Positions 8,991 to 34,329 of a DNA stretch of 64,000 bases are shown piece by piece. The stretch is taken from the NCBI RefSeq assembly GCF_964355755.1, contig NC_092672.1, positions 11,966,001 through 12,030,000 on the forward strand. Direction: 5' to 3'. Under the pieces are notes generated by a model. The model saw only the letters and a program-made list of their open reading frames with translations. It was not told where the DNA came from and did not search any database. Positions within the stretch are counted from its first letter, which is position 1. Every line of letters starts with the position of its first letter. This DNA is from Antedon mediterranea (Eukaryota; Animalia; Echinodermata). The position numbers were made by a program, and so were the translations under genes.

Positions 8991-9520
8991 CTAAGCATTA
9001 TATTCTAACTTTTCAGCAGGAACAGTCAAGTTATTCTCCTTTAAAAATGCAATAAATGATTGCAAGTTATCCTCCCTTAGAATCCCCCTTTGTTCAAGAT
9101 CTAATATCACAGTCCATTGGTTGTTACTTTGTTTTTTTAGAACACTTTTCAAACGGATGAGATCTCTTGTATTTTCTTTCGAAAGTGCGTCACCAAACTG
9201 AATTAGGTGTTGTCGATATGTTGAGAAGGAGGTGATACACTGGTTGGTTTTATCAAATTTCTCCTTTAACAGTTTGTTGACCTCCAGAACACCATTGGTA
9301 CCAGTGACATTAATTGCGTCAACAAGAACTTTAACGTTTGTACTGGTAAGATGGCCAGATCGTTTCAATAGGTTGAAGAAATGTATGCAGTCAGCATCCT
9401 GCAAATCATTGTAAGGTGTTATCAGATCTTTGCATAACACCTTCAGTTTATCAATTGAGCCATGTTCATCATACCAGCTTGATATGTTTACCACGATTTT
9501 TTCAAACTCTTCGGATGATC
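8991..9520 (-). CDS. Terminal exon of copy 1: tandem DED-like (death-fold) effector
   Basis: LKVLCKDLI...FFNLLKRSGHLTSTNVKVLVDAI followed by FSTYRQHLIQFGDALS...ILDLEQRGILREDNLQSF. Spacing resembles the DED1-DED2 pair of caspase-8/cFLIP; no RxDL motif. Fold assignment is by eye. Confidence 0.7.
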
Positions 9521-12500
9521 CTGTAAAAAAGAAAACCGAAAACAATTACATTCAGATTTTCAAGTTAGAAATTGTAATAATCATATTGCGCAATATGATG
9601 AATACTATCAATTGAATACACGCATTATTTGGTACACAGTGTATATCGTTGAACACCATGGACATAAACACATTCAATTCACTAGTATCATTCCTATTGT
9701 GGTGCGTTGGTATATTAGTTACCTGGATAAATTGGTGATGGCTCCACACTACTTCTGCCTGGAAATGAAATGATAATAAATGATGTTATATTTTAATTTT
9801 AATTCTTCAAAAGCTGTGTAGATATACTTATTATCATTACATAGATATTCACGTACATTTGTCACTGAAATATATCATTGTTATTTATTTGTAGGTTAAA
9901 TATGTATATAAGTAATATAGTTAGTTGTCATAAAATACATATTTATTTTGTCATTAAACACAATATTGATGAATGTGTAATCCCACCTTCCAAAAATAAA
10001 CGCTTTAAGCGATCAGTTTTCATCGACTTCTCACCACATGGAACAGTGCTGTTGTCTTCTTTTAAACACTCTTCCAGATCGTGTAAATGAATGTGCTCTG
10101 GATAACAGGCGATACACAACACACGTAGGTTGTAACCGATTCCTTCATTAGTTTTCAGCACAGCCTTTAGTTGAAGCTGTAAATAGCTTAGTATCTAAAA
10201 CAAAAAATACATAATCAATAAGTTTGAATGAAACGTTTCTTATAACTGCATTCAGATAAGCTATTACATTACAATATTAGAATCTTTACCTCAATGCATA
10301 AGCTCGGTTTTAGTTCAAATATTTCCTCTGTGTTATTTTCGTCAACTTTACTTCGACGGGATATTTCAAGCTGTTAAAAAAGATGTATTGATTTGTTGAA
10401 TTATTTAACATATTCTATCTCACACTGCTTACGTCTACGTATATTCATTACTGTAAATTTATTTGGTGAATATAATGTATCATTTAATTTTTAGAATTTT
10501 TCAGAGAATTAAAAATACCCGTTGGGCAACCTAGATACCAAAACATTAAAAACTGTAACACAAAATAGCCTCTATATTAATTTTAGTTATATTATTATAA
10601 AATTATTTGTTGTTTTATTGTCTAAGTTACTTTTATTCTAAGAATCTTAAATGAATACATATTATTAGAATACATAAATTATGTTGTAATCACAGCTTGT
10701 ATTATTATCCATCTGTGTAGTCATGATCAGACGTACTTAGCTCTCACTACTGCTAAAACTGATTGAATGTTTAGGAGACCAAATTTCTACATGCAGAAAA
10801 TGATCGGAAATAATTGATAATTTGATATTTGTTTAAAATCTTTCTAAAGACATGCTAGCTAATCAACAGAAATAATAAATATTCAAATTATTGTAAATAA
10901 TGAGTTAAATAAATGTTCGTACCTTCAACGCATGCATGTTTTCATTTTGATGGTCGATTTTCACGGGACCTAAACGAACCTCATGATCTCCAAAGTCAAA
11001 ATCACTACGATTTTGAAATACAACTGGGTCCCGTCCTCTACCTTTAAGCTCCACCAGGTTTAGAAATGCAACAACTAATGTATTGTACACAGAATCAGGA
11101 AGGAAGTCCGTAGGTGTAAGATAAAGTGATACCTTCTGTTTCTTGTCCATTTCAACTTTAAGGCTTTCATCCTTAATTTTCATCCGACATGGAACCAGGA
11201 ACATCCGGTTATCTTCGCTTTCATGCTAATGTAAAATAAGTATTTGTAGTGTTATGAACAATATAATATATAACATCGAACTATATTACTAAAATTATCT
11301 CAGATTTAGTTAAGAGCAAATTTGTTCAACTTACTTCTAATTTCTCATAGAGCAAACCAAATGTTTTCATCACTTCAGTAAAAATATCAAAACGATTTGG
11401 ATCTTCTTCTAATTCTCTTTTCCATAAATGCCGTAGCAATTTTTTCTCAAGGATCCCTTCCTTGTTAAGCTTTTTCCAAAGATTTCTTAATTGTTTCTGT
11501 TTCCAAATAATAAATACAAAAACTAATTTGTAAACGTATTCATACAACCACAATAAATGTTGACAACAAACAACTAACTAAAAGTAATCATGTATCCACA
11601 TGTCAATATTTTAAATCCGTTTTGTGACAATTATTTTGCTGCTAACCTTATCTACTTACCACTTCAATAGTTGGTTCAACCACTGTGATCACTTTTGTCA
11701 CCATTTCAATCATGTAAAGATTTGTTATCACTGTGTTTCTTAATTTCTTGTTAGTACTTGAATACATGATAACTCCAATGTCATTCAGGTACGCTATGGC
11801 AGTGTATAGCCCATTTTTTGAAATTCCACATTCAGTGCCGATTTTAGATGTCTAATGCAAATTAATAACAAAATAGAATTTATTGAATTTGATGATTAAA
11901 TATTGTTATTTTCCTTTAAAATAATTGTAAACAGCTTATTGTTGAATAAAACATAATTTTATCTAACATTCTTCCTTTTGACTTGACATTTTAGAAATCG
12001 CATTGTCGAGAACGCCTATTTCTGGTTAAATGTAACTGTTTCCTTGCATTTTTTATATTTATTTTACATTATCTTTGTTCAGTTTTTTTAGGATGATAAC
12101 TAGCTTTTATTAACATTACGAAACAAACAATTAAAATGTTTGATTTCATTAATAATTTTAGTTGCTCATGTTTTGCGGGAACAACTAAAACAAGAAAAAT
12201 AGTACAATAATGATGAAGACTCCCAAATACTAAAAAATGACAAGACATCTATATTTACTATTGTAATATTAATTCACATCACTGGCTCGAGAAAAGAACT
12301 TGGCAACATTTATTTATTTTATTTATTTATTTATTACCATATTTACTGAGGGTAGCCTATCCAGTAAAAGTAATTGTTACCGTATAGTACACTTTTTTTA
12401 ATAAGATAATAAATTATTTTTGTACCAGCGTTCATACTCTATGTGTTTTATAAATCTGTGTTTACAGTTGTGACAACATAAAATAAACGATTATACATTT

Positions 12501-15500
12501 AAACAAAATACTTACCTCAGTAAAAGTAATACACAGTGTTGTTTTTCCAATTTCTTGCAACTGTTCTTGCAAATCCGCCCATTTTAATGGGACACTTCTC
12601 ACCATGGCCTTCATATAACGACCAACGTTTCTCCTTAGTTGTTTTATACCTTCATGCGATTTTACAGTGTTATCCACCATGTACATCTCACGATCTACAG
12701 GATCGGCATATGGCATTCCTTCCATTTTTTCAAACATTTTACGAAACTTATCCTCCACTTCCTTTAATAAAAAAGTTTTTTCATAAATACAAGCTATAAC
12801 AACAACAAAAATGTAATTATTCTTACAAACTGTTATTTCATATTCTGATTTGAATAAGTCTAACAGATAATTACACTTAATATACGATTTAATTCGTAGG
12901 CTATGCTATTTAAATTTCATCACTGTATCGGTTTTAACTAATTCAGAATTAATCCTGTCCGTGTATACCACATACTGTACCATTGAAAAATTGTAAGCTT
13001 ATTTAATGTTAATGTACGTCTGTTACCTTGATCCAATTTTTGGATTTTGACTTTTTACTAAATGTGTCCATATGTGTAGCAACCAAACAGATAGGAGGTG
13101 ACTCAATGATCTTGCCATCAATATTAATGGGACTTCCTGGACCATGTTGTGCCACAGTATGTTCATAAATGGACCTTATCCAGAACATATTCATTTCCGA
13201 ATTGGTCATTCCTAGTGTACTCTAAAATCACAAATAAAATGCAATCTTATAAAGTAATCTAAAATATTCTCAATAACAAAGATATGCATATTTAATAAAG
13301 TGTATTCGAGCAAATAAGTAGGTACTGTAGGCACTTACTGTAATTGAATCTCGCGGATTAGCTGGTTCATCCAAGTTATCACACGCATTAAACGCTACAC
13401 AGTAGGATACTCTATTTGTGAGGAAAAACTAAACAAAATACAATTGATAATAATAACTTTTTTTTATACTCCAACACATTTATTAGGGATGTGTTAATTG
13501 ATACATGCAATAATACTTTATTGAAAATGTTATACCACAACACAATGTCGTACTGTCACTATGAGCAAATATCTTTATATTTTAATAATCATTTAACATA
13601 TGAAACAAAAACTATAGAACAAACGAAAAAATACATGAATCAAATAAAATTTTAAAATATAATTTAAAGGTCTGTTTAATAAAATAGATACGTAAACAAG
13701 CAAATCAAGACCCTTTTTTTAAACATGCAGCAATAAATTTATTTTTTAATTTTTAAGACATTTTTAAGTAATAGCAAATAACAAAATAGGAACATACCCT
13801 ATGCGTTATGTAGTAGTCCAGTTGACCTGCGTAGTCCCATATCGTAGTTACGTCACTTGGAATACTTTCTGAATCATCACTTTTTACAAATTTCCTAAAC
13901 TTTTTCATCGCCCAACTATCTTTCTGTCTTCGCTTTTTTATTTTAGCAACAACTTTTCTTTGAATTGAGTCGGGAATTGTCAGATTTTCATTTAGTTGAC
14001 TCTCTACATTCAAATAATTACTACAAATCAATGGTGTGTGTGTAAATTAGATATGGATATGGATAGATGGACTGGTCTGATTTTTTGTGATTAGACATAA
14101 TGAATGTTATAAAGGATAAGTAAGTGTATACAATAAATAAATACATTAGTCAGGATAATTAAAGAATTGAACGAGCAGCGAATATTATTCATTGCCCAGT
14201 TTTAATACCGGTACCAATGCAATATTTGCATTTTAATACATTTATATGTTTGCAACAAGAACAACCGCACTCTTCCATACATATTATTTTATTAAATATA
14301 AAGAGTCCAACCCTTTTTTGCCGAATTCTCTGCCAATGACGTGCAATCAGACTCTCTAGAATCTGATGTAGAAGCCTCGCATAAAGGAAGTTCGTTGAAA
14401 GATGTTCTTTCTTTCATCTTTAATGTAATTTCTTCCACTACAGCGTCTTCAAATATTCGCTGGGTTTGCTTGAATCTCAAGTTTTCTGTCGGCGAAAATG
14501 TATAACTAAAAATAATTATTTGTGTCATGTTGCACTCATAACGAATAAAATGGTTATAGTTTTATATACTAGAGCACTGAAATATCACTTATAGGCCTGT
14601 ATAAGCTCCACAGCTCTAAAGTACTACTTTATATTAATAATAATGAAACAATAATATAAACAACACTCCTATGAAGTTATAGTGTTTATTTCAGCATCAG
14701 CATGTATAATACACTACATTAATTTGTTATTTACATTAAATTGGTTTATTTACTTTACAAAACCTAAACAATAAACTAAAATATTAATTTCTCTTTCTTG
14801 TCATGAAATTAATTTGCTGTTATTAATTCGCGTGCTGACTTGATAGGTCTATAGTAAAGTGATTAAAATGCGAAAAACCAAACTTTATTTATGCAAAATA
14901 ATCGTCAATACGTATTATATTATTGATGTTTATTTGAACACTTTAAAAATATTTAAAAAAATAATCAAACCTTCTACTGAATACACAGAGTCAGAAGATA
15001 TAGAACATTCAAAATCAGATATTGAAGGTGTTGAAACTGCACCTTGTAAATGGAATTTGGTTCCAGTTGACGTTTGTTTTTCCATCTTTGCTGTGATGTG
15101 TTCAGGCGTTTTCTGGGATGTTCCTGCAATTCATTCATATATATTTTTGATACAATATATAAAATGTCTAACATTTCACTTTTATGTATGTTTCTATACT
15201 GTATGAGTGCATCTTAACCAATACAGTTTGTTTAGAATAATAAAAATACCCTTGTAATATAAATTGTAGTAGACATTCATCATACCTGTTTTTACTGGAT
15301 CCAAAGAAGAGATTGCTGATGATTCCAGTTGGAAATCAGATTTAGATGTTGACATATCTGAACTTCCTTCGCCATCATCCATTTCTTCTTTTATTAACTG
15401 TGTTGCAAGTTTTTCTGCAAGTGCATCTTCCCGTATTTTCTTGTTGAGCTCCATAACTGTAAAAAAACACAAGGTGAAATAAGGTTGTACGGTACACATC

Positions 15501-18500
15501 ATAGAAAATAAATTAAATACTAAAATTAGAAAAATGAGATATATCATCAAATCACCGGTAAATAAAATAAATATAATATGTAGGTCATTTATGTAATTAT
15601 TGACCAAAATGCATTTTTAAGTATTTATTAAAAATATTATTTCCAATGTACCTTACCGGTACTTATTTACCTTAATTATGGTACTAATAAATCTCTATAC
15701 AAAAATTGGCCAAAGCAGGCAAGTATGCGTATGTTGAAGGAAGAGAGAGTTTCTCTCTTTTGTGGGGACAGCCCACTTTGAACGAACAGTTAATGTGTCA
15801 TTTGTTATGGTTGAATTCTTCTTTTCAAACTTACCGTCGATATCTTCCTTCTTCCACTTGTCACAGTCTTTTCCAATTGCTTGAAACAATGTCGTTGTAA
15901 TAACAATACTATCAGTAGATAGTTCGTTGGAATTAAATCTATAATAATGAATAATGAACTCCAAAAGGTCGGATTTAATGAAAGTAGAATGTATCCAATT
16001 GTTCATCTTAAAATATTAATATATTTAAAATAAAAACGAAGTGAAGATCACAAGTAAATAAGCTGTATATTGATGAAGACCATATATATTTTATTGGTGC
16101 ATCTTATAAAATAACTTGGTTCTTTTGTTACCTTAGTCCAAGCATGGCCTTTACACAGCTAGTTTTTCCAGCACCTTCTTTCCCGAGAAACACACATCTT
16201 GAATTTACAACTGCAATCTCACCATTTTCAAGTTCATTTTGAAATGATCTAACTGCCCTCTCACCTCTAGCTAATATTTCATCTGGAACTAAATTGCAAT
16301 TAAAATGAATGCAAAATATACAAAAACAAATGTAAAAATACAAATATTTTACACTTAAGAATCAATTCGAAGCCATAGTTTTAACAATGTCATTATGACT
16401 GCTCATCTTTGTCACATTCATACAGTTCAAAGGTTCAGTACAATTTTAAATGTGTGTCATTAGTAATATACTGTTTAATATTCATGATGCAAAACTCAAG
16501 AAAAGTGTATTAATGCAAACTTACTGTCAAATAACTTCAATATCTTATTTTTCGTCTGTTGGGAGATTAGAATATTTTCCTTCAAAGCAAACAGATGCAG
16601 GTGTTTCTCCTCGCTATACAAAAAAATGTATTAAAGTATTATCCACTGTTACTTTACTAATACTAGTAATGTACATAATCCGGATTGTAATGAATACATT
16701 TATAAGCCAATAACGTGCACACGTTAATATGACACAATCTGAGTACCTTTGCACTAGCCAACACCAACACTAACTGCTCTACCATTTAATGTTTAATGTG
16801 ATTGAATACGGTACACTTTAAAAATGCTATTGAAAATTTGTATAAAAGAATAGTCGATACTGATTAAATGTACATGTTAATTATCGCATCTATGAGAATG
16901 TACCCCAATGCTAACATAATGACTTTAAATAATTAGCGCCCTTTCTGATATTCTTTAGCTCCATGTTAATAACATACTCCTAATCAAAATAAGAGTATAC
17001 CTTGGATATAGGCGTAATGGTTTGCTTAATAAGCACAATTTAAAAATGCAAATTCAATTTTGCATTAATTGACGGTACCTTGTTTCTTGCTCTAAGTGAT
17101 GCTCCGTGGGCTATGAGACTGTTCACAATTTCTAAATCACCAATACTGCTAAAGCTGACGTGTCCATGTAGCGGTGTGTTTCCCTCCTGGAAAGCAGAAA
17201 GTTTTATGTATTATAATATACATTTTACACGTTTGATACTAGAACTAAGGTTTAAACACATATATTGTATTATTATCTTTCAGTAGGACTTCGATGATCA
17301 TCCCTGCCAAATCGCCAGGACTTGTCTGGTGGGTGTAGGCCAACTGGAAATGCGTCTGACAAGTGGACAGCAGGGAATGAGTCCAACGGATGTGAAGCAT
17401 GTCTATTGATTATAGATTATAGAATGAAAGTTAGATGATAAATCTTAATTGGGGTAAAAAATTAACTTCATTAATGTAAACGGGGTCCCATCGTTTTATT
17501 ATTTTTTATGAAATCATACACATAAGCGCCATTATTGGTTCGGCATCATAGTCCTCATGGTTTATGGTAAAAAAATTGTCAAGTAAATGGAGTATGTTGT
17601 TAATTGTCTACGATAGACCACAGTACATCATTACTGTAAATAATACAACTAGTTGATTTTAATTGGGACGTGGAGAGGTGTTAGCAATGAACATAATTTT
17701 GAAAGTATTGGTATTAACGTCTTGTTAAATGCGGCAGCTATATGATGTTTAAAATAATTTAAACTCACTTTGATAAATAAATATGACTTTTTTTCAAAAT
17801 AAAAATAAATTAAACAAATCCAAGGTTTGTTTATACGGGAGCTCATTTAGATTAACTTATATTGTTAATTAATACAAATGATAACGTTATTGATTTTTTA
17901 ATCATTTTGAAAGAGTAATTTACATTGTTTGTTATATAGATACAGACGGGTTAGCGCTGAACACATTTTAAAACTATTAATTTAGCGTCTTGTTCAACGT
18001 GTCTATGTAGCGGTGTGTTTCCATTCTGAAAAGTAGAAAGTTAGATTAAACTTGAGACATTTTTTTAAGAATACAGGTATTATTATATTACATATTTATC
18101 TTTTTCTATATTAATTTTCTAATTCATTAAGAGTGACTGTAAATTATATAGAAAAACCTGGTATTAAGAAAATAATACAACTTGCTGATTTTAATTATTA
18201 TAATACAGACGGGTTAGCAATGAACACATTTTAAGAAAATAATACAACTTGCTGATTTTAATTATTATAATACAGACGGGTTAGCATTGAACACATTTTA
18301 GAAGTATTGTTCAATCTAAAACGCTACAGCTACACGATTTTTAATATATTTTAAATTGTATTTCTGCTTTGATAATAACTATTATATTGTTTCCAATGAA
18401 AACACATTAAACGAATCTATGGTTTGCTTATAACGGGAGATAATGTAAATTAACTTATAGTGTTAACTAATACAAATAATTACGTTAATGATTTAAATCA

Positions 18501-21500
18501 TTGTATAAGAGTAATTTACATTGTTTGTTGCTGTGATTGATGCTCCGTGAGCCATAAGACTGTTCACTATCTCTACATTACCATCGCCAAGTGCAACGTG
18601 TCTATGTAGCGGTGTGTTTCCATCCTGGAAAGAAGAAAGTTAGATTAAACTTGACGCTTTTTTTCAAGAATACAGGTATTACTTTATTACATATTTTCCT
18701 TTTCTATATCAATTGTGTAGTTCATTGAGAGTTAACTGTAGATTATATAGATAGATATATTATATACACTTTTCCAATGAAAAACACATTAAACGAATCT
18801 TGGGTTTGCTTATAACGGGAGATAATGTAAATTAACTTGTAGTGTTAACTAATACAAATAATTACGTTAATGATTTTAAGTCATGGTAAAGGAGTAATTT
18901 ACATTGTCTGTTGCTGTGATTGAATCTCCGTGAGCTATGAGACTGTTCACTATCTCTACATTATCACGGCCCCACCAAACGTGTTCATGTAGCGGTGTGT
19001 TTCCATCCTGGAAAGAAGAAAGTTAGATTAAACAACTTGACGCATTTTTTATGCGAATACAGGTAGTATTATATTTCATATATATCCTTTTCTACATTCA
19101 TTTTCTAATTCATTAAAAGTGACTGTAGATTATATAGAATGACCTGGTATTAAAAAAATAATAAAACTTGCTGATTTAAATTATTATAATGCAGAAGGGT
19201 TAGCAATGAACACATTTTAAAAGTATTAATTTAGCGTCTTTTTCGATCTAAAACGCTACAGCTACACGATGTTTAATATATTTTAAATTGTATTTTTGCT
19301 TTGATAATAACTATACATTTTTCCAATGAAAAACACAATCAATGAATCTAGGGTTTGCTTATAACGGGAGATAATGTAAATTAACTTGTAGTGTTAACTA
19401 ATACAAATAATTACATTAATCCTTTTTAATTCATTGTAAAAGAGTAATTTACATTGTTTGTTGCTGTGATTGATACTCCATGGGTTATGAGACTGTTCAC
19501 TATCTCAACATTACCACTGCCCAACCTAACGTGATCATGTAGCGGTGTGTTTCCATTCTGGAAAGAAGAAAGTTAGTATTATTATATTTCATATTTTTCT
19601 TTTCTACATTCATTTTCTAATTCATTAAGAGGGAATGTAAATTATATGGAAATACCTGGTATTAAAAAAATAATGACTAACTGATTTCAATTAAGACATG
19701 CAGAGGATTTAGCAATGAACATCATTTTGAATGTATTGATGTTAGCGTCTTGTTTAATCTAAAATTCGACAGCTGTACATGATGTTTAAATATCGTAAAT
19801 TATATGGTGATGGTTAATAACTAAAAATAATATAATTTATTAAATTAATAAACATATTCCTACACCTGGACATTTCGTTTAGATTCAAGTAAACTTTCAT
19901 GAATACTGAATTTGTAGATATGTATGTATTTACATAACATAATTGCAAATTCCAACAATACACACTACGGTGAATTCAATAAATATTTTGTTATATTATT
20001 AATCTACTATCCATCCCACCTTCATCCTACAATAAAAAAAAATATTACGTAATTCGTTTCTCCCATTTGCTATGAGGCTTTTGAATGCAAGCTATGTGTA
20101 TGTATCGTGTTATATGACATTTGCCTTTTTGTTATATTTGTTGCATTTGTATTTTATCCTATTGGTGACGTACTGTCTGTAGTTTACCATTTTTTTTTCT
20201 ACTACGAATAATAACGTTAATGATTTAAATAATAGTAAATCTCTGTCAACGCTACCAAACTGTATCAATAAAGTGTCGTACTGTCTGTATTTTACCAATT
20301 GTATCATATCTTTACTTTATTTATTTAATATGTGACAAGCAGGAAAGTTTGTTTTACATTTCTCAGAGCTTGTTGGTATTTCATCATAATTACATTTTTC
20401 ACAAATTAAAATATTGTGGTTTAGGGCCTACATAGTTATTCTACCGTATCAACAGTGACGCAACTTCCGGGTTCCCATGAGAGGCACGACCAGTGTCCGC
20501 TAAGATCATTGTACTTCCAGAACCGCGACAGGTCAGACGTGTGCGCTAGTTGGATATTGTTTCTTTGGATACATACGGCGTGAGGATCATCGCAGTTGTG
20601 GGCTTCATAAAAGGTAACGTTAAAATTTTGCTTTAGGTGTAGTTGCTAGAGGACTGGGCGGACTGTATTACCGTACGGACGCCCTTAATTTAGCCTATAT
20701 GTCTTTATTTCTATCTCCTTATCTTATGATGAATTCGGAGTAGGCTATTATAAATTGGGAATGATGGCGTGCAAGTGAGGCTATATGCGTGGTCGCCATC
20801 TTTAATCTATGGAATGTTATGCAGGCTGTGGCATGCCGCATATTTTTGTTAAAGGGAAAGTAAGTTACTCGTTTCCCTAATGCAGTGTTTTGTTTTACAC
20901 CTGCACAATGGAGAGTAAGCTGATAGTCTCCGTTCACTCAATTAGCCAATGCGTTAAAAAGGCTATAATTTATAATTTATAAATTCATTGCTATATCAGG
21001 CGGTTGTTGGGCCTTCTACTATACTACTAGGCCTAGAGCAGGCCTATTACCATAGAGATATTATAATTTCTCTATGCTATTACTAATTAATAGTAGGTAT
21101 TGCTAGCTAGGCCTTGACTGGCAAATGTGCATGTATGCGAGTATACTAAGCAGGTCATGACCTTAATGGTATGTCTGTTGCATACAGGTGTTAAGCGATT
21201 TTCTAATATGGCAGAACATGATGGCTCGCCAGGTGGTGCAGCTTTTAGTGTTGGTGATAAATTAAAGGAGGAGTTGATTAACTCGATGTCGTCAATGGTG
21301 GCCAGCATGAAGCAAGATTTGGTTCAACAAGTCAAAGACATGGTTGACTTCACAGAAGAGCCTGATGAGGGCCAGTCCTATATGCCTGTGTGGTTGGATG
21401 ATGAGCTCCCCGCTGCACAAACAGCACAGCGCATTGATGAGTACACAAGTGGGCCAGAGGAGGTAGCTACAGCTAGTCAAACCAGTGATTTTGCTGACGT

Positions 21501-24500
21501 AGCAGCTGAATTTAGTACAACCACACTTACAGGGCCAGCTGTGGATGATAAATTGGCTATAATTGTAAGTGACCTGATTAGTGGAAGGATACTCCCTGCA
21601 AAGATGACTGAGCTTACTGGAAAATATCTTCGACCACTCAACTGTGAAATGCTAATCACACCCAAGGTGAACTTACCTGTGTGGGGCCAGTTGAAACCTT
21701 CTACCAGGACCAATGATGTTGGGTTGCAGAAAGTGCAGGCACTGTTCGTAAACTCTATGTATGCTCTCGCTCCAAGCATGTCACTAGGCCTCAGGTGATT
21801 TGAAAACTACATTGACGCATGCACTGGTTATAGCGCTGACTGCAAACCGGGAGTTTAACCTGAAGCGAAGGGAGATGTTAAAACCAGACCTTAACGCACG
21901 ATTTGTTGCACTCTGTGGGGTGACGACTCCCATAACCACAGAGCTCTATGGAGATGATGTTACCAAACAGATAGACGATCTCTTCAAATCAAACAAACTT
22001 GGCGAGAAATTATCAGGTGCTAGAAGAGGTCGGGGTCGTGGATACCACCCATATGCAGGAGCCAGACGAGTTGGTTTCCGCAGCCGAGGTGGAAGTCGCT
22101 CAGGGTTCCAGAGGTACCAGTCAAACCAGTCTTTTTTAGGAGGAAAGGGCTCCTACCAACGCAGACAGGGAGCCCGGCTGGCTGCTCAACCAAAGGGAAA
22201 TCGAGAGTAGAGGTCAGTTTTGTTAATCAGATTAATAAAATTCTTAATAATATATCATGGTAGTTTTATTGCAGGTCAATTAAGGTTCTGCGTGGACCGT
22301 TGGAAAGAGATCACTACGGATCCCTTTGTTCTGTCATGTGTTACCAATTGTGAAATTGAATTTGAAGCTATGCCTATGCAGGCTGGCTATAATCGACAAT
22401 TAGAGTCGCAATTTTCTGTTGCTGAGCAACGAGCTATTGACTCAGAACTTGCATCTTTTTTGGCCAAAAGGGTTATTGACATTTCCAAACTATGTAAAGG
22501 AGATTTTGTTTCGCCTATCTTTATCCGTCCCAAAAAAGAACCGGGTAAATATAGAGTTATTTTCAACCTTAAGGAACTTAATGAGTATGTCACTTATAGG
22601 CATTTTAAAATGGACACGATAGATTCGGCAATATAGCTTATGAAGCCGGAGTGTTTTATGTCATCCATCGACCTCCGGGACGCTTATTCGGTGCCTATTG
22701 CAGCAAAGTATAGACGGTTTCTTAAATTTTGTTGGAAAGGTGTATTTTACCAATTTAATGCGCTACATATGGGCTTATCTTGTAGCCCTCGCGTTTTTAC
22801 AAAGCTGCTGAAGCCAGTTTTTTCTACTCTAAGGAGTAGCTTTGGTATCTCATGCCTGGGTTATATTGATGACTCGTTTTACACTGACGACACATTGGCG
22901 ACACATTGGCGGGGTGTCAAGAGGCTACTTTGCAAGCTACAATGCTGCTAACAAAATTAGGTTTTTCAGTTCATCGGGAAAAATCTGTACTTAGACCCAC
23001 TCAGCAGTTAGAATACATAGGATTTCAATTAAACTCGGTGTCTATGTCTGTTTCGGTTACCAAAGCAAAGATATCAAGCATTGTTGGCATTTGCAGAGAG
23101 TTTGTATTTAAGAAATCTGGTAGCATCCGGGCATTTGCTTCACTCATAGGTAAGCTTGTTGCGACATTCCCAGGCGTGGAATATGGACCGTTATACTACA
23201 GACATCTTGTCCGAGACAAAGATTTGGCATTGCGGCATTCAGCCGGTAATTTTGAGGTGATGATGATCCTCTCGGAAGAGAGTATAATTGAACTTGAATG
23301 GTGGATAACATTTCTCCCACCAGCCTCAAAACTGATTAATCATGGCCCTATTAACTATACGATCTTCGTAGATGCTTCCCGCAAGGGCTGGGGGGGGGGG
23401 GGGGGCATAGTTGACGAGAGCAGAACGCAGGGGCTGTGGTCCCTAGAGGAAGCTGTTCACGACATAAACATTCTAGAAATGCTTGCAGCGCTATTTGGTT
23501 TACAGGCACTTTGTGGCCATTTGCACAAAGTGCATATTCGTATCATGTCGGACAACGCGACCGCTGTCTCATATATAATTTGTATGGGAGGTACGAAATC
23601 GTGGTCATGTAATTCGGTTGCCTACAAGATTTGGTACTGGGCAATAGAGCAAAATATTTGGCTTACCGCTGCTCATACTCCGGGCATAAAAAATGTAGAG
23701 GCAGATGTTCTGTTTAGAAATTTTGTATCTGGGTTAGAATGGCAAATGAATGCAGGTATTTTTTCTAAGACTGTTGACTGTTTTGGAGTGCCGGATATTG
23801 ACTTATTTGCTAGTCGAATTAATCATAGGGTACCGGCATATGCGTCTTGGAAACCAGATCCAAACGCTGTTATCATTGATGCTTTTACCAGTGATTGGTC
23901 AACATTTAAACAATTTTATGTTTTCTCCCTTTTTGTCTGATAGCTAGATGCCTACAGAAAATTTTACTGGAACATGCCACGGGCATCATGGTGGTGCCAC
24001 TGTGGAGAACACAGGCATGGTTTACGAGAGTTCTCGACTTACTCATCGACACACCACGCTGGGTGAGGGTCAACAAGTCAGTGTTAGAACACCCACTTAT
24101 TCATCACCATCCACTAAGCTCACAGTTATGTCTACTAATTTGCAAGTTGTCAGGGAAATCATCGCTGACGTCAGCCTACCGGCAGAAATTGACAGAGCAC
24201 ACAGAAGCAGTATGACTTACACATCAGAAAGTGGCGTCAATTTTGTTTTCAAAGAAAAATTGATTTCTTGCACCCCGTTGTAGGAGATGTCTTAAAGTTT
24301 TTACATAACCTTTTTAAAGAAGGTCTTTCTTACTCCTCGCTTAACACGGCTAGGTCAGCGTTAGCATGTTGCTTCACTGACTATCATGGCAGGGAGGACT
24401 GGATGCTTGCCATCGTCGCATAACATGCTCGTTTAACTAACAAATAAACAAGTAGCAAAATCTGTTTTACCACATTTGACCAGTGTCATAAAAAACTTCT

Positions 24501-27500
24501 TGGAAGAGAGATTAGGATCTCAAAATCACAATAAATGCGTAAAAATTGAATCAAACAACAATTATAACAAACTACTATTTATCAACTGTGAGATTTAACA
24601 ACAACAATGTATCTCGTCTCTTTCCCTCAAGCTTGCCGTTAAATAATTATAAACTGTAAAAATAGTGTTTAGATCTTTTAAGATGTTTAAAAACATGTAT
24701 TTTGTACCCACTATTTCCACACATTTAGCCTTAAACATGTTTAGGTTCTAAACACATTCTAAACATGTAGTCTGTATCCAACTCTACACATTAGTGACGT
24801 ATTGATTGTTAAACATGTGGAGCAATATGAAGACAAGTTTAGGTTTTAAACGTGTTTAATTTGCCATGTGTGGAGCTCATGTGTGGAGCTTTTTTCCGCC
24901 ACAGTAAAATCGTATGCACGCAACGCTAAACACATACCTAAACATTTTGACTGCTAAACATGTGGAGTAATTGAACATAATATTGACATTAGTCAAGTGG
25001 AGGAAAACAACATGTAGCTATAAACACGTTTAGCTTTTAAACACGCTAAACATGTAACTCGTGTCTAAAAGCTAAACGTGTGGAAAAAGTGGGTACAAAA
25101 TAGGTGTTTAAGATCTAAACACTATTTTTACAGTGTAGAGGGGGTAGTTTCAATAAAGCAGACGGCAAACATACAATGTATAGAGTGCGTTTAAAAATAT
25201 TTTCTGAGTTTAGTAATGAGATCAGTATTTGTAGTAGACATAAGGACAATATATTTTAATTTAGATGGATTAGTTGTGTAAGAGGAAAACATATACTTAG
25301 TTCTACTATCTTAATAAACTAAAGGGAATTCATCTTCAATTGATTGTAGAGAGCATAATTTGCATAGTCTATCATTTCTATAAGGCCTAATACGATTCCA
25401 TCTTCCTTTTTCTAGTTATAATATTCCTAGTCTTAGTTTAGTCACAATGTGTCTATGTTTGTAATTTTAATTAAGTATTCTTCCATTCCATAATTCATAA
25501 TTCAACATAATTTATATTGAATGCGTGTGAAATATTGGAGCTTAGGCCTATAGAGAGTGTAACCTATTAACTCATAGAATTGTGTCGTTCAATAAGCCTC
25601 GAATTTGTTTAAATTTTTAAATAAAAAATATTGTTGGCCTGTTGAGCATGCCATGTTGCCAAATCCATTTATATATAATGAGTTTTACATCATTGACCTA
25701 AATCGCTTATTTTGTTGCGCTTTTCTATGTTGAAAACATTGTTTAATGAATTTTTCATAATCTATTTGGCGCACTCTCAGCCACTAGCGAATTCAATTAA
25801 TGATACTTAGATTTTGGATAGGGAATTCTCAACATTCTCCTCTCATTACATCACTTGGAGCAGAATTTTCTATTCCTAAAAGATATTTCTATTCTCTAAA
25901 ATCGAAATATAATTCAAGTGGTTGTTCATCTGCTGTAAAACTACAAGTCAGTCGATGCTACAAACCACACGGGTTCGGAGAAGTCAAGCAGGCAGAAATC
26001 CATTATATATCAGATGCTTGTGAAGTAAGATTGTGGTCAATGCACGTATCTGCTAAAAATCTAAAAAGATATCAATTGTATGTAGCTACCCAGGTTTAAA
26101 AAAAATCAGCGATGCAACTTCCATAGAAAACATCTTCTAATCCGAGTGATATAGTCAGTAGAACCGTTCATCTGCCGTTGGCCGATTCAATTGATGACGA
26201 ATCGCGTAAAGTTGTTGCTTCAGAAGTAAAATATATTCGCTTATTCCACACTAATGTAGATAAGACTGTTTTTCAGTATGGTTTTATTAACAGACAGATA
26301 AAATGAACTCTAAATCACATTAAATGTATTGGATGTTCATTCCCGTTAAAGGAGCCAACACGTAGCAAAGCATAATTGTTAGATAGGTCTATCAATGGAA
26401 ACTTAACAGTGATATAATACAAAACAAGGCCAACAGCCATTAAGTCGCGTGCTACAATGCATAGTGATACCGGACCGACAGACAAACAGACCGACAGACA
26501 GACAGACCGACAGACAGACGGACCGACCGACATAGTGAACTATACTGACCGAAATTACTGAACATGTTAAAAATGTTGAAATGTTTAAAAACATTTATAT
26601 TTTTTTAATTTACACGTGCGTAGCCTGTCACTTTTGACGTGCTCGTATAACGTAATTTCGAGTTGAAAAGTAAGTCAAGAAAACAGAAATCGGGCAAAAT
26701 GAGTGCGCAATAACATTTAACGCGCAGTGCGCCGGCAAAAATCTGCGCACTCATGGCAATTTTGTAAACGCTTAAAATTGCCTGAAACGTACTCTTATTT
26801 CATCGAAAATAAATTTTGAAAATTTTAAGCGCGCGTACGCATGCGTTACATGCGCTACGCACGTAATTGTATTGCCATATGATGATTTATGCCCTGAAAT
26901 TTATGAGTACCAAATTTTATTTAATTGTGATTCATGGTTGACAGACAGACCGACCGACCGACATAGTGAACTATAGAGTCGCTTCCACGCGACTAAAAAC
27001 AGATAACATAATATAATATGAACAGATCTGTGTAAACATTACAGACAGCAATGTAACGGCAGTATGTGTAACTGAGTTAATTATTATGTAATTGTCGTTT
27101 AAAAGGTATGCTCATCTGGAATAATTTGCATATTTCAGATAATATATTTCAGATAATATTTATTTAGATAATAATGAATGAATATATACAAAATAGAAAA
27201 AAGATATTAAAGTGAACATAGATAAAGCAGTAATTCGTAGTCATTATTATCATGGATCCCTTCTAGAAGTTAATAACATGTGGCATATATTAGAAATCTT
27301 ACTAGCTAGTGCAGTTAGTTGAGACGATACTAGCGTATAAACCATAGGTCTTAGTTGTATTGCGATTTCTACATGTTATGTCATATACTATTGAGAAGTT
27401 ATACAATACATTATATCTAATGTGTCTTGATAATAACACGCCTTCCGTTTTTTTTTTCTCTTACGGGTTATCTCAACTCAAATAAGTGTCTAGTGAGGCC

Positions 27501-28139
27501 GCAGTTTTAGTATATTAGTAAAGTATATTGTGTCTGTTATTTCATAAATTTGTCATATTCACTTGACAAGCAGCTAGTATAACTTATAGAAAAGTTACAT
27601 CATATTCAACGCAATTAGAAGTATCTCTGAAGACCTTTTTGAAGCTCCGGTTAATCCTTATGAGAAAGCTCATACCGAACGTTGTATGCATATTAATCCG
27701 CTTAGTCAGTTTACTGTATGTCTATTCATCCGCTGGATTCAGTGTTCAGTGTGAATAATATCCTTTGAAAAATAGTTGGATTGTATAATTATATAAATAT
27801 ATAGTTTCTATACCTTAGCTACGGAGTTCACAAGATGTGGATATGTTGTACATATTTCTTCAATTTCTTCCAAATCTCTACATCTTAGGCCTACAGCGTC
27901 TTGCAATAAGTATCTTAAAAAAAAAGACAAAAATGCATCATGGCAAGAATATTTGGGCAATAAAGTTAATATGTTTATTTTTCATGTTTATAAACAATAT
28001 AAAAAATAATAATAAAAATATAACATTCTTTGAACTATTTTAAAATATTAAGAGTTTGTTGGATATAAAAGGTAAAGCTTACTACTCCATTTAAAAAATG
28101 AAGTCTCCCTCAATTTTAAGATATAACTTACTCATCCAT
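8991..28139 (-). CDS. Multi-exon ankyrin-ROC-COR-tandem DED protein, copy 1 (~1208 aa; may carry a frameshift). Coding exons: 28132-28139, 27814-27913, 19453-19557, 18903-19007, 18520-18624, 17079-17186, 16525-16613, 16132-16288, 15835-15938, 15286-15456, 14971-15123, 14312-14485, 13798-14003, 13339-13428, 13027-13221, 12516-12761, 11660-11851, 11335-11496, 10923-11225, 10290-10370, 9987-10194, 9723-9758, 8991-9520
   Basis: Manual splicing with GT-AG boundaries and matching phases at every junction except a 1-nt excess in 16525-16613. Motifs: GNTPLH ankyrins; ROC G1 GKEGAGKTS, G2 STDSI, G3 WDYAGQ, G4 THMD; COR-like YLNDIGVIMY and KEGILE...LW; C-terminal double DED-like helical domain. Confidence 0.85.
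9987..12761 (-). CDS. COR-domain exons of copy 1, ending in a CxxC...HxH...C...C motif
   Basis: VPLKWADLQEQL, AIAYLNDIGVIMY, LWKKLNKEGILEKKLLRHLW, FLVPC, LCIACYPEHIHLHDLEEC...VPC. Confidence 0.8.
13027..16288 (-). CDS. ROC GTPase exons of copy 1, including three phase 1-1 insert exons
   Basis: PDEILARG pre-ROC motif, GKEGAGKTS P-loop, STDSI, IWDYAGQLDYYITHRFFL, PPICLVATHMD. Confidence 0.9.
17079..17186 (-). CDS. Ankyrin repeat exon (108 nt, phase 0-0): EGNTPLHGHVSFSSIGDLEIVNSLIAHGASLRARNK
   Basis: AG/GT flanks; ankyrin consensus G-TPLH...L...GA. Confidence 0.88.
17924..18025 (-). pseudogene. Chimeric ankyrin pseudo-exon (102 nt, splice sites intact, in-frame TAA)
   Basis: Reads NGNTPLHRHVEQDAKLIVLKCVQR*. 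The centre is replaced by the array's intron block tacagacgggttagc...tttagcgtctt. Confidence 0.75.
18520..18624 (-). CDS. Ankyrin repeat exon (105 nt): DGNTPLHRHVALGDGNVEIVNSLMAHGASITATNN
   Basis: ttccag acceptor, gtaaat donor, open frame. Confidence 0.9.
18903..19007 (-). CDS. Ankyrin repeat exon (105 nt): DGNTPLHEHVWWGRDNVEIVNSLIAHGDSITATDN
   Basis: ttccag acceptor, gtaaat donor, open frame. Confidence 0.9.
19453..19557 (-). CDS. Ankyrin repeat exon (105 nt): NGNTPLHDHVRLGSGNVEIVNSLITHGVSITATNN
   Basis: ttccag acceptor, gtaaat donor, open frame. Confidence 0.9.
20440..24372 (+). mobile_element. DIRS1-like tyrosine-recombinase retrotransposon, frameshifted and 3'-truncated, intronic in copy 1
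   Basis: gag-like ORFs 21127-22210 (KYLRPLNC...PKVN); RT (FKMDT, LGYIDD); RNase H (FVDAS, HDINILEM, MSDNATAV); methyltransferase-like domain (PDIDLFASRINH...DAF); start of the YR N-terminal domain (LSYSSLNTARSAL), then truncation. The 5' boundary is approximate. Confidence 0.9.
24652..25135. mobile_element. MITE with CACTG-type TIRs (CMC/EnSpm-like), TA flanks
   Basis: (a)actgtaaaaatagtgtttagatct ... agatctaaacactatttttacagtg, with many internal aaacatgt/aaacacgt subterminal repeats. Confidence 0.7.
25930..26240 (+). pseudogene. Degenerate BEL/Pao RNase H fragment
   Basis: VSRCYKPHGFGEVKQAEIHYISDACE and a downstream SNPSDIVSR motif. Confidence 0.65.
26423..26999 (-). mobile_element. Helentron-associated (HINE/DINE-1-like) non-autonomous element, internally deleted copy
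   Basis: Reverse complement of the 34330-35130 element: sub-TIR agtcgcgtg/cacgcgact, (GTCY)n microsatellite, end ggctgttggccttgt. Confidence 0.8.
27814..27913 (-). CDS. N-cap ankyrin exon of copy 1: (E)YLLQDAVGLRCRDLEEIEEICTTYPHLVNSVAK
   Basis: Poly-T-aag acceptor and gtatag donor. Phase 2 in matches ATG GAT GA of the preceding exon; phase 0 out joins NGNTPLH. Confidence 0.75.
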
Positions 28140-28185: not shown

Positions 28186-31100
28186 TGTGTTGCTCTTATT
28201 TTAGCTGCACCGTTCCTTTCCGAGAGAGGGCGTATGTAAATAGGATCCATGTTATAAGTTTCGTATTGACTACATGTGTTCTAGAGTTCGACTTCTAAAT
28301 GTCTTATTGTGCCGAGATAGTGTGTAATTTACTAAACTAGTAGGCCGCACATTGCTTGTAAGTTGTTAGAGTATTATATTACAATAATTAGAATTATATG
28401 AACCACAGTAGTGGCCTAGATTATTAATGCTATACTGTACTACATTGTGGTCGTAGGCCTAGGCCTGCGTAGATTGAATCGTATACGATCGCTTGAACAG
28501 CATGGCGATAAACACGAGTCTCCGTGTAGAGGGCGGTGTTCTATTTTGTATGCCGTATCTATAGAAGTAGTACGTCCGTATGAGGGCGCTGTTGATTATT
28601 TGATGACTTTGTTTAATATGTTCTTTAGGCATGTACACCTCCGTAAGAGGGCGCTACGTTTGATCTGTTTTGCAGATAGTTTATGTTATGTTTATTATTA
28701 CTATTTGGAGCTGGATTTAAGTATGCTTAATTTCAGTTCACCCTGTTTATGGCTGAATTTGCTGTATTAAAGAGTCAGTCAACAAGTGATTGTGTTGCAG
28801 TATTTTTTGTCGTGGATTGGGTTTATCTACTGAATAGCGAGTTTGACGGTTCAAGCTCGTGAGGTCAGCACAGTGAAAAGCAATGTCGACTTCTAGTAGA
28901 AGACGTGATGGTGCGAGAGATGATGCAAGGTCAATAGGGTCAAGGAGCCATAGATCGAAGGCATCATCGCAGTCAGTGTCATCATTAGAAGTATCTGCTG
29001 CACAAGCTCGTGCTGATGCTGCTGTAGCGAAAGCTCGTGTTACATTTGCGAAGAAGAAGAGTGCCGCTAAGTTAGAGGCGTTGAAGGCTGAAATGGAAGC
29101 AGCTAAAGCTATGTTAGACATAGACGAAGTAGAGAAAGAAGAAGAAATGGCTGCAGCACAGGCTAGAGCCAATGTCCTTCAAGCAGAATTGCAACATATG
29201 TCTTTTGAAGATATTGAGGAAGAGCTTTCACAGCTAGAAAGCAATAATCAGATGGAAGAGGTGCAAGGCGCACCCCAAGATGCAGTACCCAGTCAAAGAA
29301 TGGCAGAGGTACTTAACGAACTTCCAAAGATGGAACCCAGTCAGCGGGTAGAAAATTATCTAAACAATGCTGTAGAGGTACCAACGTCTACTCTTAATCC
29401 TGGAGCTAGATCTTACGAACCAAATCATATGCAGGAGTACATTCGAATACTGGCACGTCAGCGATTACCCTTGCAAGAACCGGATATTTACTCTGGGGAT
29501 CCAATAATGTTTCTTCCGTGGAAAAGATCCTTTGAAGCTATGGTGAAAACAGCCTATGTGGACACTGTTGAAAAGCTGTCATTCCTGTGTAAATATACTA
29601 CTGGCGAAGCAAAAGTTTTGGTTGATCGATTCAGACTAAGGCATGTTGAAGATGTTGACAAGGCCTATCATGAGGCCTGGACTGAGCTAGAAGACAGGTT
29701 CGGGAACCAAACCTTAATATCAGCTGAAATCATCCTGAGACTTACCAAATACAGAAGATTCAAAGCAGGTGATTTGACCGCACTCCAAGAACTGGCTGAT
29801 TTGTGTGGAGACGCAGTTGCTCAAATGCAGGAGCTACCCCATCTGATTACGTTAAACACTCCTCATGGTATTAAACCAATTGTAGAGAAGTTACCACACT
29901 TCATAATTAATAAATGGAGAGAAAAGGTCGCAAAACATAAAAGGAAAATGAAAACGTTCCCGAATTTCAGCATTTTCACAGAGTTTCTAAGTGAGATGGC
30001 TCACATCCAACGTGATCCTGATGTCCCAAGAGGAATTGTTGATGAGGTCAAAACTGATACACCGGGAAACTACCGTACACAGACAGGTTACCGTCCTAAG
30101 ACCACGCAACGTTCAACTGTAAATGTGAGAATGACTGAGGTGAATAAATCTGAAGGGATGTGTCCGCTACACAATGGTCAGCATCCGTTGGTAGACTGTA
30201 GAAACTTTCTGGCCAAGACTTATGCTGCCAAGAAGTCATTCTTTAAGGAAAACCAAGTATGTTTCCGATGTCTCTCATCTACATCACACATGGCTAGGAA
30301 TTGTGATAGAAATGTCAGGTGTGGAGAATGCGGTAGTGATCGTCACCCGACTGCATTCCATGGTGACCGTCCGCAGAAGGCGAATGGCGGGGAACAAGTA
30401 AAAGCGGAGCAAAAGGCAAATGGCGGGGAGCAAGTAAAAATGGAGCAAAAGGCAAAAGGTGAGAAGACAAATGGCGGGGAGCAGGGGACAGAGTCGCAGA
30501 AGACGAAGGAAAGAGACAAAGTAGTAAGTACTACATGTACGGATGTCTGCGGTGGAATTGGGCTGAGCCGATCGTGTGCAAAAATATATTTAGAAGACCA
30601 TCCTAACACTTTCATAAAAACCTACATTATACTAGACGACCAAAGCAATCGCTCGTTGGCCAAGAGTGAGGTATTCGACCTTTTTAATATCAATGCAAGA
30701 CTTACGTCGTATACTTTGAAGACTTGTTCGGGAGCGGCTGAAGTTCAAGGCCGAAAACTGGAGAAGCTGATAATTGAGTCCATGGATGGTAAAACAAGAA
30801 TAGCAGCCCCATCGCTACTTGAATGTAATGACATACCTGGGAACAAGGCAGAAATTCCCACTCCAGAGACAGCCAGCAATTTTCCTCACTTGAAGGATAT
30901 TGCGGATAAGATACCACCCTTGGATAAGAATGCAAATATTACCATACTGCTCGGCCGAGATGCTGCTCAAGCTCATAAAGTCCGAGAAGTACGCAATGGA
31001 CCAAATCACTCTCCATGGGGCCAACGACTTGATCTAGGCTGGATGGTTATTGGCGACGTCTGCTTAGGGGGAGCCCACCAAAAGAATATTGTCACCGCCA

Positions 31101-33894: not shown

Positions 33895-34329
33895 GTTGCT
33901 GAAAAATGAAACCGAAACTTATATGTATATTACTTGTAATATAGCATACTAAATTGAAAAATGAACAGAAAACAAAATACATTTGTATATAGTAGGCATA
34001 TTGTCTTAGAAAAATTACAAGAATTGATATTTATTCGAGTAGGCCGAGTAGATATACGGCTCTGCTCTATATCTATATATAAATTTACGTAAGGGCAACA
34101 TTCGGTAAATCGCGCGTTACTTCTAGAATGTTAACTCGATGGTATACAAAGTTAGGTCTTACTTTCGGTACTGATTTTCACCACCTGGTGTAACCCTGTT
34201 TACTAATTAAATTGAGTTAGATAATTAGTTATTGACAATTAAATCGAATTTAGGTTCAACGATTTGCCCCAAATAGGGGTGCTTTCTGTTCGTTGTAAAC
34301 ACTGATAATGTTTCAAAGCTATTATGTTA

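What the first reader, a model, noticed from the sequence alone, without database searches (positions are those of the whole stretch)
8991..28139. Ankyrin-ROC-COR-tandem DED protein: a candidate ROCO-based immune/cell-death receptor
Seen: a spliceable minus-strand gene with N-terminal ankyrin repeats, a ROC GTPase, COR, and a C-terminal pair of DED-like domains, with no kinase. Established: ROCO proteins (LRRK1/2, DAPK1, MFHAS1) are GTP-regulated switches; DAPK1 ends in one death domain; tandem DEDs typify caspase-8/-10 and cFLIP and nucleate filaments. Inference: a sensor-switch-effector layout like an NLR, but with ROC-COR in place of NACHT and coupled to FADD/caspase-8 signalling. I do not recall this architecture being characterised.
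Basis: partly seen in the sequence, partly recalled or inferred. Interest (0 to 1): 0.9.

Follow-up and report, generated by a model that had tools for sequence, protein, structure and literature searches.

The report
Feather-star GTPase with swappable death tail
A feather-star gene joins ankyrin repeats, an LRRK2-type GTPase and a tail predicted to fold like the double death-effector domain of caspase-8; it belongs to an expanded family that appears to swap these tails and likely acts as immune or cell-death switches, but this copy carries a frameshift and is probably disabled.

Summary
The architecture is real: 23 GT-AG exons (28139 to 8991, minus strand) encode an N-cap, four ankyrin repeats, Roc, COR and one tandem-DED exon (Z 16 to caspase-8 tDED), with no kinase. 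But four extra bases in the exon before Roc stop the frame at codon 200, and an LTR element sits 46 bp before the ATG: this copy is probably a young null. Intact siblings exist as public models, and one contig shows a sibling spliced from the ankyrin cap into Roc. The gene belongs to a crinoid family in which Roc, COR and tail trees disagree (AU p 0.002 to 1e-81); tails include several tDED types, Death and HEPN. The same tDED occurs on crinoid NACHT-LRR receptors and double-tDED adaptors; no caspase fusion was found, so FADD/caspase-8 coupling is unsupported. The layout (repeat sensor, Roc-COR, variable effector) is already described in bacteria, Trichoplax and brown algae, and this scan noted death-domain swapping in Trichoplax before; a tDED version was not found in ten paper searches. 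Function untested. New variant; interest 0.55.

The parts
28132..28139 (-). Exon 1, ATG, 8 nt
   Evidence: GT donor, phase 2 fits exon 2; not shown by RNA
27814..27913 (-). Exon 2, N-terminal capping helix region
   Evidence: AG/GT, joins exon 1 to ank1 in frame; resembles the N-termini of P0006, P0012, P0013 by eye
19453..19557 (-). Ankyrin repeat exon 1 (phase 0-0, one repeat per exon)
   Evidence: Pfam Ank E 2e-5
18903..19007 (-). Ankyrin repeat exon 2
   Evidence: Pfam Ank E 1.6e-4
18520..18624 (-). Ankyrin repeat exon 3
   Evidence: Pfam Ank E 7.5e-7
17915..18024 (-). Broken ankyrin exon: first 10 codons intact, middle replaced by intron-like sequence with a stop
17079..17186 (-). Ankyrin repeat exon 4 (last intact repeat)
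   Evidence: Pfam Ank E 9.6e-6
16525..16613 (-). Ankyrin C-cap exon, 89 nt, with a 4-nt excess near 16588 that shifts the frame; stop at 16547
   Evidence: one X1 contig equals the window, near-identical contigs in X1 and X3 lack 4 nt
16132..16288 (-). Roc exon with alpha0 and G1 P-loop (GKEGAGKT)
   Evidence: profile A2 aligns this part to C. tepidum Roco; acceptor seen spliced in a sibling contig
15835..15938 (-). Roc exon with switch I; conserved G after the threonine is S here
14312..15456 (-). Three phase-1 exons (15456-15286, 15123-14971, 14485-14312): Ser/Thr/acidic insert between switch I and G3, predicted disordered
   Evidence: 83-96% identical in P0002 and P0011; pLDDT under 50 over residues 209-418 of P0011
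13798..14003 (-). Roc exon with G3 (WDYAG)
12516..13428 (-). Three exons (13428-13339, 13221-13027, 12761-12516): Roc G4 (THMD), G5 region and start of COR-A
9987..11851 (-). Five COR exons (11851-11660, 11496-11335, 11225-10923, 10370-10290, 10194-9987); one codon missing in the first against 24 of 24 homologues printed
   Evidence: Pfam COR-A; fold of close relative P0011 matches LRRK1/2 and C. tepidum Roc-COR, E 5e-12 to 2e-9
9723..9758 (-). 36-nt phase-1 linker exon
   Evidence: identical peptide in P0008 and P0009
8991..9520 (-). Terminal exon: whole tandem DED plus stop, entered in phase 1
21015..24420 (+). DIRS-like retrotransposon in intron 2 (approximate ends; class name is my inference)
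   Evidence: RVT_1 E 1.4e-9 and phage-integrase N-terminal SAM hits
28186..33896 (+). Bel/Pao LTR retrotransposon inserted 46 bp upstream of the ATG
   Evidence: LTRs 99.6% identical, 5-bp target duplication, Peptidase_A17/DUF1759/DUF5641
57381..63347 (-). Paralogue B: last Roc exons and COR, open frame
   Evidence: model is 632 of 632 identical to public protein P0034
55974..57138 (-). Paralogue B: two phase-1 linker exons and a different tandem-DED exon (30% identical to gene A's)
   Evidence: no DNA match to gene A beyond the last COR exon

Best explanation
This is a recently frameshifted, probably disabled copy of a crinoid-expanded family of kinase-less ROCO proteins that likely work as intracellular immune or cell-death switches. 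Shown: the domain order, the frame break, the family, the variety of tails and the disagreement between domain trees. Inferred mechanism for intact siblings: the ankyrin stack (one repeat per exon, variable at the end of helix 1) binds a ligand; Roc-COR changes between monomer and dimer with the GTP cycle, as reported for C. tepidum Roco; because the tDED hangs on the C-terminal end of COR, dimerisation would bring two rigid tDEDs together and seed a DED assembly; the seed would recruit proteins with a matching tDED type, most likely the crinoid double-tDED adaptors and tDED-NACHT-LRR receptors, and through them death or immune output. The single phase-1 terminal exon lets recombination re-wire the output by replacing the tail.
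For: Fold: Z 16.0 to caspase-8 tDED; all 24 Foldseek rows shown are tDED structures, TM up to 0.71, none at E<=0.001; family profile hits caspase-8 tDED E 1.3e-6 and C. tepidum Roco E 8e-15. Family: 28 of 28 close Roc-COR relatives are Antedon mediterranea or Anneissia japonica; their tails are tDED in 15, HEPN_DZIP3 in 3, Death in 1, a second Roc-COR in 1, none recognised in 8. Four public models carry Ank+Roc+COR+DED in one chain (P0002, P0006, P0011, P0013). Mosaicism: against gene A, P0011 is 88/60/93% and paralogue B 94/80/30% identical in Roc/COR/tDED; three AU tests reject congruence. Network: the same tDED sits N-terminal to NACHT in 7 proteins, N-terminal to Roc in 6, and in 20 proteins without an NTPase match. 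Ankyrin differences cluster (12 of 22 variable sites in one 24-nt window, p 0.0065). Splicing: an X8 contig joins the cap-exon donor to the Roc G1 acceptor, 25 of 26 letters, without the 4 extra bases. Lesion.
Against: No functional data; no expression in immune cells tested. The ankyrin signal rests on three repeats and the dN/dS codon set was chosen after seeing the data (pooled dN 1.26, dS 0.67 on about 9 synonymous sites). DED1 has V where FADD and caspase-8 have F of the hydrophobic patch, so it may not polymerise the same way. ROCO proteins form dimers, not NLR-type wheels, so the seeding step is weaker than the NLR analogy implies. The Roc-COR-tDED part is not visibly decayed (5 private changes at 198 conserved columns against 0-10 in 12 other models), and a weak GAG acceptor 4 nt downstream would keep the frame, so 'disabled' is not proven. 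The tDED tree has long branches that the tool flags, and annotation chimeras in a tandem cluster could mimic some swaps; the A-versus-B contrast is read from the window itself and is free of that.
Confidence: 0.6

Rival explanations
1. One reading: an intact receptor that signals directly to the host FADD/caspase-8.
For: Closest solved structure and best PDB sequence hit of the tDED are caspase-8; DED families interact homotypically (PMC11874512, passages). An alternative acceptor would give an open frame.
Against: Frame break in this copy; 17-20% identity to caspase-8 tDED against 50% to P0130's second tDED; no caspase domain in 26 of 26 tDED proteins without Roc/COR profile match, nor in 4 more. 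These are only the best 150 of 6652 hits, so a distant crinoid caspase-8 would not be listed.
Confidence: 0.15
2. The tDED acts as a cFLIP/vFLIP-like brake or decoy: the ROCO caps or diverts DED assemblies of the tDED-NACHT receptors, or signals to NF-kB, instead of triggering death.
For: vFLIP and cFLIP tDEDs score Z 12-14; KSHV vFLIP activates IKK (PMC11874512, passages); the patch residue differs from FADD/caspase-8; some ROCO tails group with NLR tDEDs (P0047 with P0108/P0134).
Against: Tails are interchangeable with HEPN_DZIP3 and Death domains, which suits an output slot better than a brake; caspase-8 scores above cFLIP by profile (1e-6 against 0.19).
Confidence: 0.15
3. The cluster is mostly neutral duplication debris in a transposon-rich region, with no immune role; tails differ through drift and gene conversion.
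For: Gene A is frameshifted; five retroelements lie in the window; many public siblings begin inside Roc (P0001, P0003, P0004, P0008, P0009).
Against: Purifying selection between A and B in five Roc-COR exons (dN 0.085, dS 0.335); G1, G3, G4 motifs kept across two crinoid genera; a spliced sibling transcript; tDED core residues invariant across types.
Confidence: 0.1

Closest known systems
Prokaryotic AP-GTPase (Roc)-COR counter-invader proteins, Kaur et al. 2021, PMC8195603 (passages and section 15 read; supplements not read)
   Same: Repeat head, Roc-COR core, variable C-terminal effector, several paralogues per genome each with a different tail; shared small adaptor domains link sensors to effectors.
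   Different: Bacterial, LRR head, effectors such as TIR, caspase, trypsin, GT4; predicted only. Here animal, ankyrin head, tandem DED tail on its own exon.
Trichoplax ROCO expansion, Civiero et al. 2014, PMC4104024 (passages read)
   Same: At least 17 animal ROCOs with Roc-COR flanked by repeats and death-fold domains.
   Different: CARD and Death domains with TPR or LRR; 'DED' and 'ankyrin' occur 0 times in that text.
Brown-algal LRR-ROCO candidate immune receptors, Teng et al. 2024, PMC11378527 (abstract and passages read)
   Same: Expanded ROCO family, one sensor repeat per exon, shuffling and diversification of repeats.
   Different: LRR not ankyrin; mostly no death-fold tail; 'DED' occurs 0 times.
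DAPK1 (domain order recalled; C-terminal death domain confirmed in PMC6337361 passages)
   Same: Ankyrin repeats, Roc-COR, C-terminal death-fold domain.
   Different: DAPK1 has an N-terminal kinase and one Death domain and is single copy; this family has no kinase, a tandem DED and many mosaic paralogues.
Invertebrate DED-NACHT NLRs (amphioxus, sea urchin, Nematostella; PMC2575513, passages read)
   Same: DED as connector of an NTPase-switched intracellular receptor; crinoid NACHT-LRR proteins carry this very tDED.
   Different: STAND ATPase instead of Roc-COR, effector at the N-terminus, sensor at the C-terminus.
Caspase-8, cFLIP, vFLIP/MC159 tandem DEDs
   Same: Predicted rigid two-DED fold over the whole exon.
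   Different: 13-20% identity, N-terminal in those proteins, no GTPase; patch F is V here.

Membership tests
ROCO (Roc-COR) proteins | Roc G-domain with G1, G3, G4 motifs | tested here: met
   GKEGAGKT, WDYAG, THMD; Pfam Roc above cut-off in P0002, P0006, P0011; switch I G is S in this copy
ROCO (Roc-COR) proteins | COR directly after Roc | tested here: met
   COR-A; P0011 model matches LRRK1/2 and C. tepidum Roc-COR over 510-580 columns
ROCO (Roc-COR) proteins | GTP binding, hydrolysis and nucleotide-dependent dimer cycle | not testable with these tools
   inferred from PMC6337361 passages
DAPK1 / LRRK orthologues | Protein kinase domain | tested here: not met
   no kinase exon in the 23-exon model; no Pkinase hit in the 30 close relatives scanned
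Tandem-DED proteins | Two DED folds in the caspase-8/FLIP arrangement | tested here: met
   predicted model, Z 16.0, rmsd 2.8, 161 of 175 aligned; PYD and DD rows reach Z 9.6 at most
Tandem-DED proteins | Hydrophobic patch (FL) of FADD/caspase-8 | tested here: inconclusive
   family consensus LKvL aligns to LKFL of FADD and caspase-8 DED1: L kept, F replaced by V; functional weight of the motif is recalled
Tandem-DED proteins | Filament formation or binding to FADD/caspase-8 | not tested
NLR (STAND) receptors | NACHT or NB-ARC ATPase | tested here: not met
   Roc GTPase instead; works-like claim only
Intact protein-coding gene (this copy) | Open frame from ATG to stop | tested here: not met
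   stop at codon 200 with the canonical splice sites; open only with a weak alternative acceptor

The most novel reading that the evidence does not exclude
Crinoids run a tDED-wired signalling network of their own in which ROCO GTPases serve as a second class of NLR-like receptor beside NACHT-LRR proteins: both plug, through typed tandem DEDs, into double-tDED adaptors, and ROCO genes re-wire their output by swapping one terminal exon. That would make a GTPase dimer switch a nucleator of DED assemblies, which my searches did not find described.
Probability: 0.4. Interest if true: 0.78.

Novelty: new variant of a known kind. Interest (0 to 1): 0.55.

Why it matters
Whether kinase-less ROCO proteins are immune receptors has been proposed for bacteria, brown algae and simple animals but, in the papers I read, not shown. 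Here the effector is a module with a simple in vitro readout (DED assembly) fixed to the end of COR, and the same module is shared with NACHT-LRR receptors in the same genomes. That makes the question testable: does the Roc-COR nucleotide cycle gate death-fold nucleation? It would also give a kinase-free model of how LRRK2-type switches pass on a signal. The weight is limited by the broken state of this copy, the restriction to crinoids so far and the known precedents.

Tried and rejected
No RNA holder on record was listed; X8 is a guessed RNA run and also has intronic contigs, so only its one exon-exon junction is used. One search showed no GT-AG joints among the 15 rows printed (135 not shown). 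First idea that the frameshift was a homopolymer slip in an A run: rejected, the excess is 4 nt near 16588 and one X1 contig carries it exactly; X1 may be the source sample, so this is not independent, and in X3 0 of 2 contigs over that place carry it. Contig depth was not used as copy number. First doubt about the ATG at 28139 (phase clash) was resolved by exon 27913-27814. Single-sequence PDB search with the tDED exon found no DED (best rows EB3, E 0.15). Foldseek gave no tDED match at E<=0.001. The profile search put FADD marginally first (E 0.004), weaker. Complex prediction of gene A tDED with P0130 tDED2 was not available; no verdict. General decay of the Roc-COR-tDED part: not seen. Scan look-ups by sequence, by place and by crinoid words were empty. 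PMC6321704 (placozoan immunity) holds no Roc passage. Not-in-print claim rests on ten full-text searches of an open-licence library; subscription papers (for example the Marin ROCO surveys, recalled, not seen) and all supplements were not read and could list a Roc-COR-DED architecture.
Full report
Observation. The window is AT-rich animal DNA with many retroelements. Reading the minus strand gave 23 coding exons from the ATG at 28139 to the stop ending at 8991, all introns GT-AG. They encode a short N-cap, four ankyrin repeats each on a phase 0-0 exon (4 of 4 pass Pfam Ank), a cap exon, a Roc domain split by a 166-residue low-complexity insert, COR, a 12-codon linker and one terminal exon. That exon matches Pfam DED twice, just under cut-off. 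Its AlphaFold model from a 14-row alignment has mean pLDDT 85; against 48,161 solved chains the best rows are caspase-8 tDED (Z 16.0, 161-163 of 175 aligned), then vFLIP, MC159 and cFLIP (Z 12-14), single DEDs (Z 10.5-11.6) and PYDs (9.6 or less). The ESM Atlas top cluster is a DED cluster, commonest taxon Echinodermata, score 0.94, with recognition just under the tool's threshold. A model of the close intact relative P0011 (mean pLDDT 61) matches LRRK1, LRRK2 and C. tepidum Roc-COR.

The copy is broken. The cap exon is 89 nt; the phases on both sides and the homologues P0002 and P0011 need 85. The frame stops at codon 200, far upstream of 16 further introns, so decay of the message is expected (established knowledge, not tested). 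Of the contigs over the site, 1 of 3 in run X1 equals the window, and one each in X1 and X3 is near-identical but lacks 4 nt at 16588; whether that is the other allele or a paralogue is open. Other lesions: a fifth ankyrin exon overwritten, switch-I G to S, one codon lost in COR-A, a Bel/Pao element with 99.6% identical LTRs 46 bp before the ATG. Against this reading, the 1001-residue Roc-COR-tDED frame is open and no more eroded than its siblings, and a weak acceptor 4 nt downstream would keep the frame. I put a young null allele or pseudogene at about 75%.

Intact siblings exist. All 7 hits of the tDED exon and all 28 hits of the Roc-COR core are Antedon mediterranea or Anneissia japonica models named 'uncharacterized'; the window is therefore most likely Antedon (inference). 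P0006 and P0013 have Ank, Roc, COR-A and DED in one chain, P0002 and P0011 too with one weak Ank. One contig of run X8 leaves the window exactly at the cap-exon donor and goes on with the start of the Roc G1 exon, 25 of 26 letters, and lacks the four extra bases: a sibling is spliced from ankyrin cap into Roc. My model of paralogue B (63347-55974) equals public protein P0034 at 632 of 632 residues, micro-exons included (source not looked up).

The family is modular. Among the 28 close relatives the tail is a tDED in 15, HEPN_DZIP3 in 3, Death in 1, a second Roc-COR in 1 and unrecognised or missing in 8; P0005 adds ZU5 and a second tDED. Identities to gene A in Roc (G3 onward)/COR/tDED are 96/96/96 for P0009, 88/60/93 for P0011, 94/80/30 for paralogue B; P0006 and P0014 share 84% in COR and 25% in tDED (12 of 18 rows tabulated). 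AU tests on 12 rows reject the tDED grouping in the COR tree (p 1e-81) and two COR groupings in the tDED tree (p 0.0016, 5e-48) (groups were taken from the other domain's tree; long branches are present). At DNA level A and B align from Roc to the end of the last COR exon and not beyond, and both tDED exons are entered in phase 1. Five equal-length Roc-COR exons show dN 0.085 against dS 0.335. In the three 105-nt ankyrin exons 12 of 22 variable sites fall in one 24-nt window after TPLH (p 0.0065); that this is the ligand face is recalled from designed ankyrins.

The tDED is a shared plug. A profile search of 1.84 billion representatives gave 6652 hits at E<=0.001, of which 150 were listed. All 40 tDED-bearing proteins with a looked-up name are from the two crinoids; the rest, P0130 included, were not looked up. 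P0119, P0130, P0159 and P0161 pair an N-terminal tDED of one clade with a C-terminal tDED of other clades; P0130's second unit is 50% identical to gene A's (FastTree). Some short tDED-only models may be gene fragments. No caspase domain was found in the 30 proteins scanned for this. Farther Roc-COR relatives in amphioxus, brittle star, hemichordate and sea anemone end in Death, Death-TIR, kinase or caspase, and none of those named carried this tDED.

Mechanism. Shown: anatomy, lesion, family, mosaicism, shared tDED. Inferred: ligand binding by the ankyrins; a GTP-linked monomer-dimer cycle through the C-terminal half of COR (reported for C. tepidum Roco, PMC6337361, passages); pairing of tDEDs by that dimer; nucleation of a DED assembly as for caspase-8 tDED (PMC11874512, passages); recruitment of matched crinoid tDED adaptors. 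Which nucleotide state is active, and whether the output is death or transcription, is open. Rivals: direct FADD/caspase-8 coupling, a FLIP-like brake, neutral debris.

Comparison. It is a ROCO by Roc motifs and COR; it fails DAPK/LRRK (no kinase) and NLR (no STAND ATPase) membership but works like the latter by layout. Precedents: bacterial LRR-Roc-COR with at least 24 effector types (PMC8195603, section 15); Trichoplax ROCOs with CARD and Death (PMC4104024); brown-algal ROCOs with one repeat per exon (PMC11378527); Roc-COR-TIR and Roc-COR-Death genes in anemones and Aplysia (PMC5094078, PMC9334734, passages); DED-NACHT in amphioxus (PMC2575513). Earlier notes of this scan report death-domain swapping in Trichoplax ROCOs (unchecked here). 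Ten searches found no paper on Roc-COR with tandem DED or on this crinoid family; supplements and subscription papers were not seen.

Verdict. Real gene, probably disabled here; new variant of a known kind; interest 0.55; the bolder network reading has probability 0.4 and interest 0.78.

Noticed in passing
window 28186-33896 (+): Recent Bel/Pao LTR element with a 1407-codon open stretch, 5-bp target duplication, 46 bp upstream of gene A's ATG.
   Followed up: partly
window 39885-48452 (+): Gypsy-type LTR element, LTRs 99.8% identical, RT, RNase H and integrase in two overlapping frames.
   Followed up: no
window 50232-52898: Penelope-like element (RT plus GIY-YIG) with an 858-bp inverted duplicate at 99.2%.
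   Followed up: no
window 58835-60265 (+): LINE fragment (zf-RVT) inside a COR intron of paralogue B.
   Followed up: no
window 63401-64000: Paralogue B loses similarity to gene A just upstream of the G4 exon, where A has the next Roc exon 117 bp away; public model P0034 starts inside that G4 exon, so B may be cut at its 5' side too.
   Followed up: partly
window 48524-49251: Tandem array with a period near 47 bp (self-alignment).
   Followed up: no
window 26423-26940 and 34612-35130: Very high-copy short repeat with GTCC/GTCT microsatellite, two inverted copies 98.7% identical.
   Followed up: no
proteins P0012, P0047, P0052, P0057, P0059: Odd crinoid ROCO layouts: double Roc-COR with a hydrophobic tail; tDED-Roc-COR-tDED; TAZ-KIX-Roc-COR-tDED; four tDEDs before Roc; DED-Macro-Roc-COR-Death.
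   Followed up: no
proteins P0038, P0169, P0182: Five tDEDs before NACHT-LRR; tDED-TIR-tDED; tDED-OTU-NACHT, all Anneissia japonica.
   Followed up: no
proteins P0071, P0088, P0089, P0092, P0095, P0111, P0118, P0136: A recurring Neuralized-Roc-COR-Death-TIR protein (P0071 amphioxus); P0135/P0179 from Exaiptasia join HEPN, Roc-COR and a caspase.
   Followed up: no
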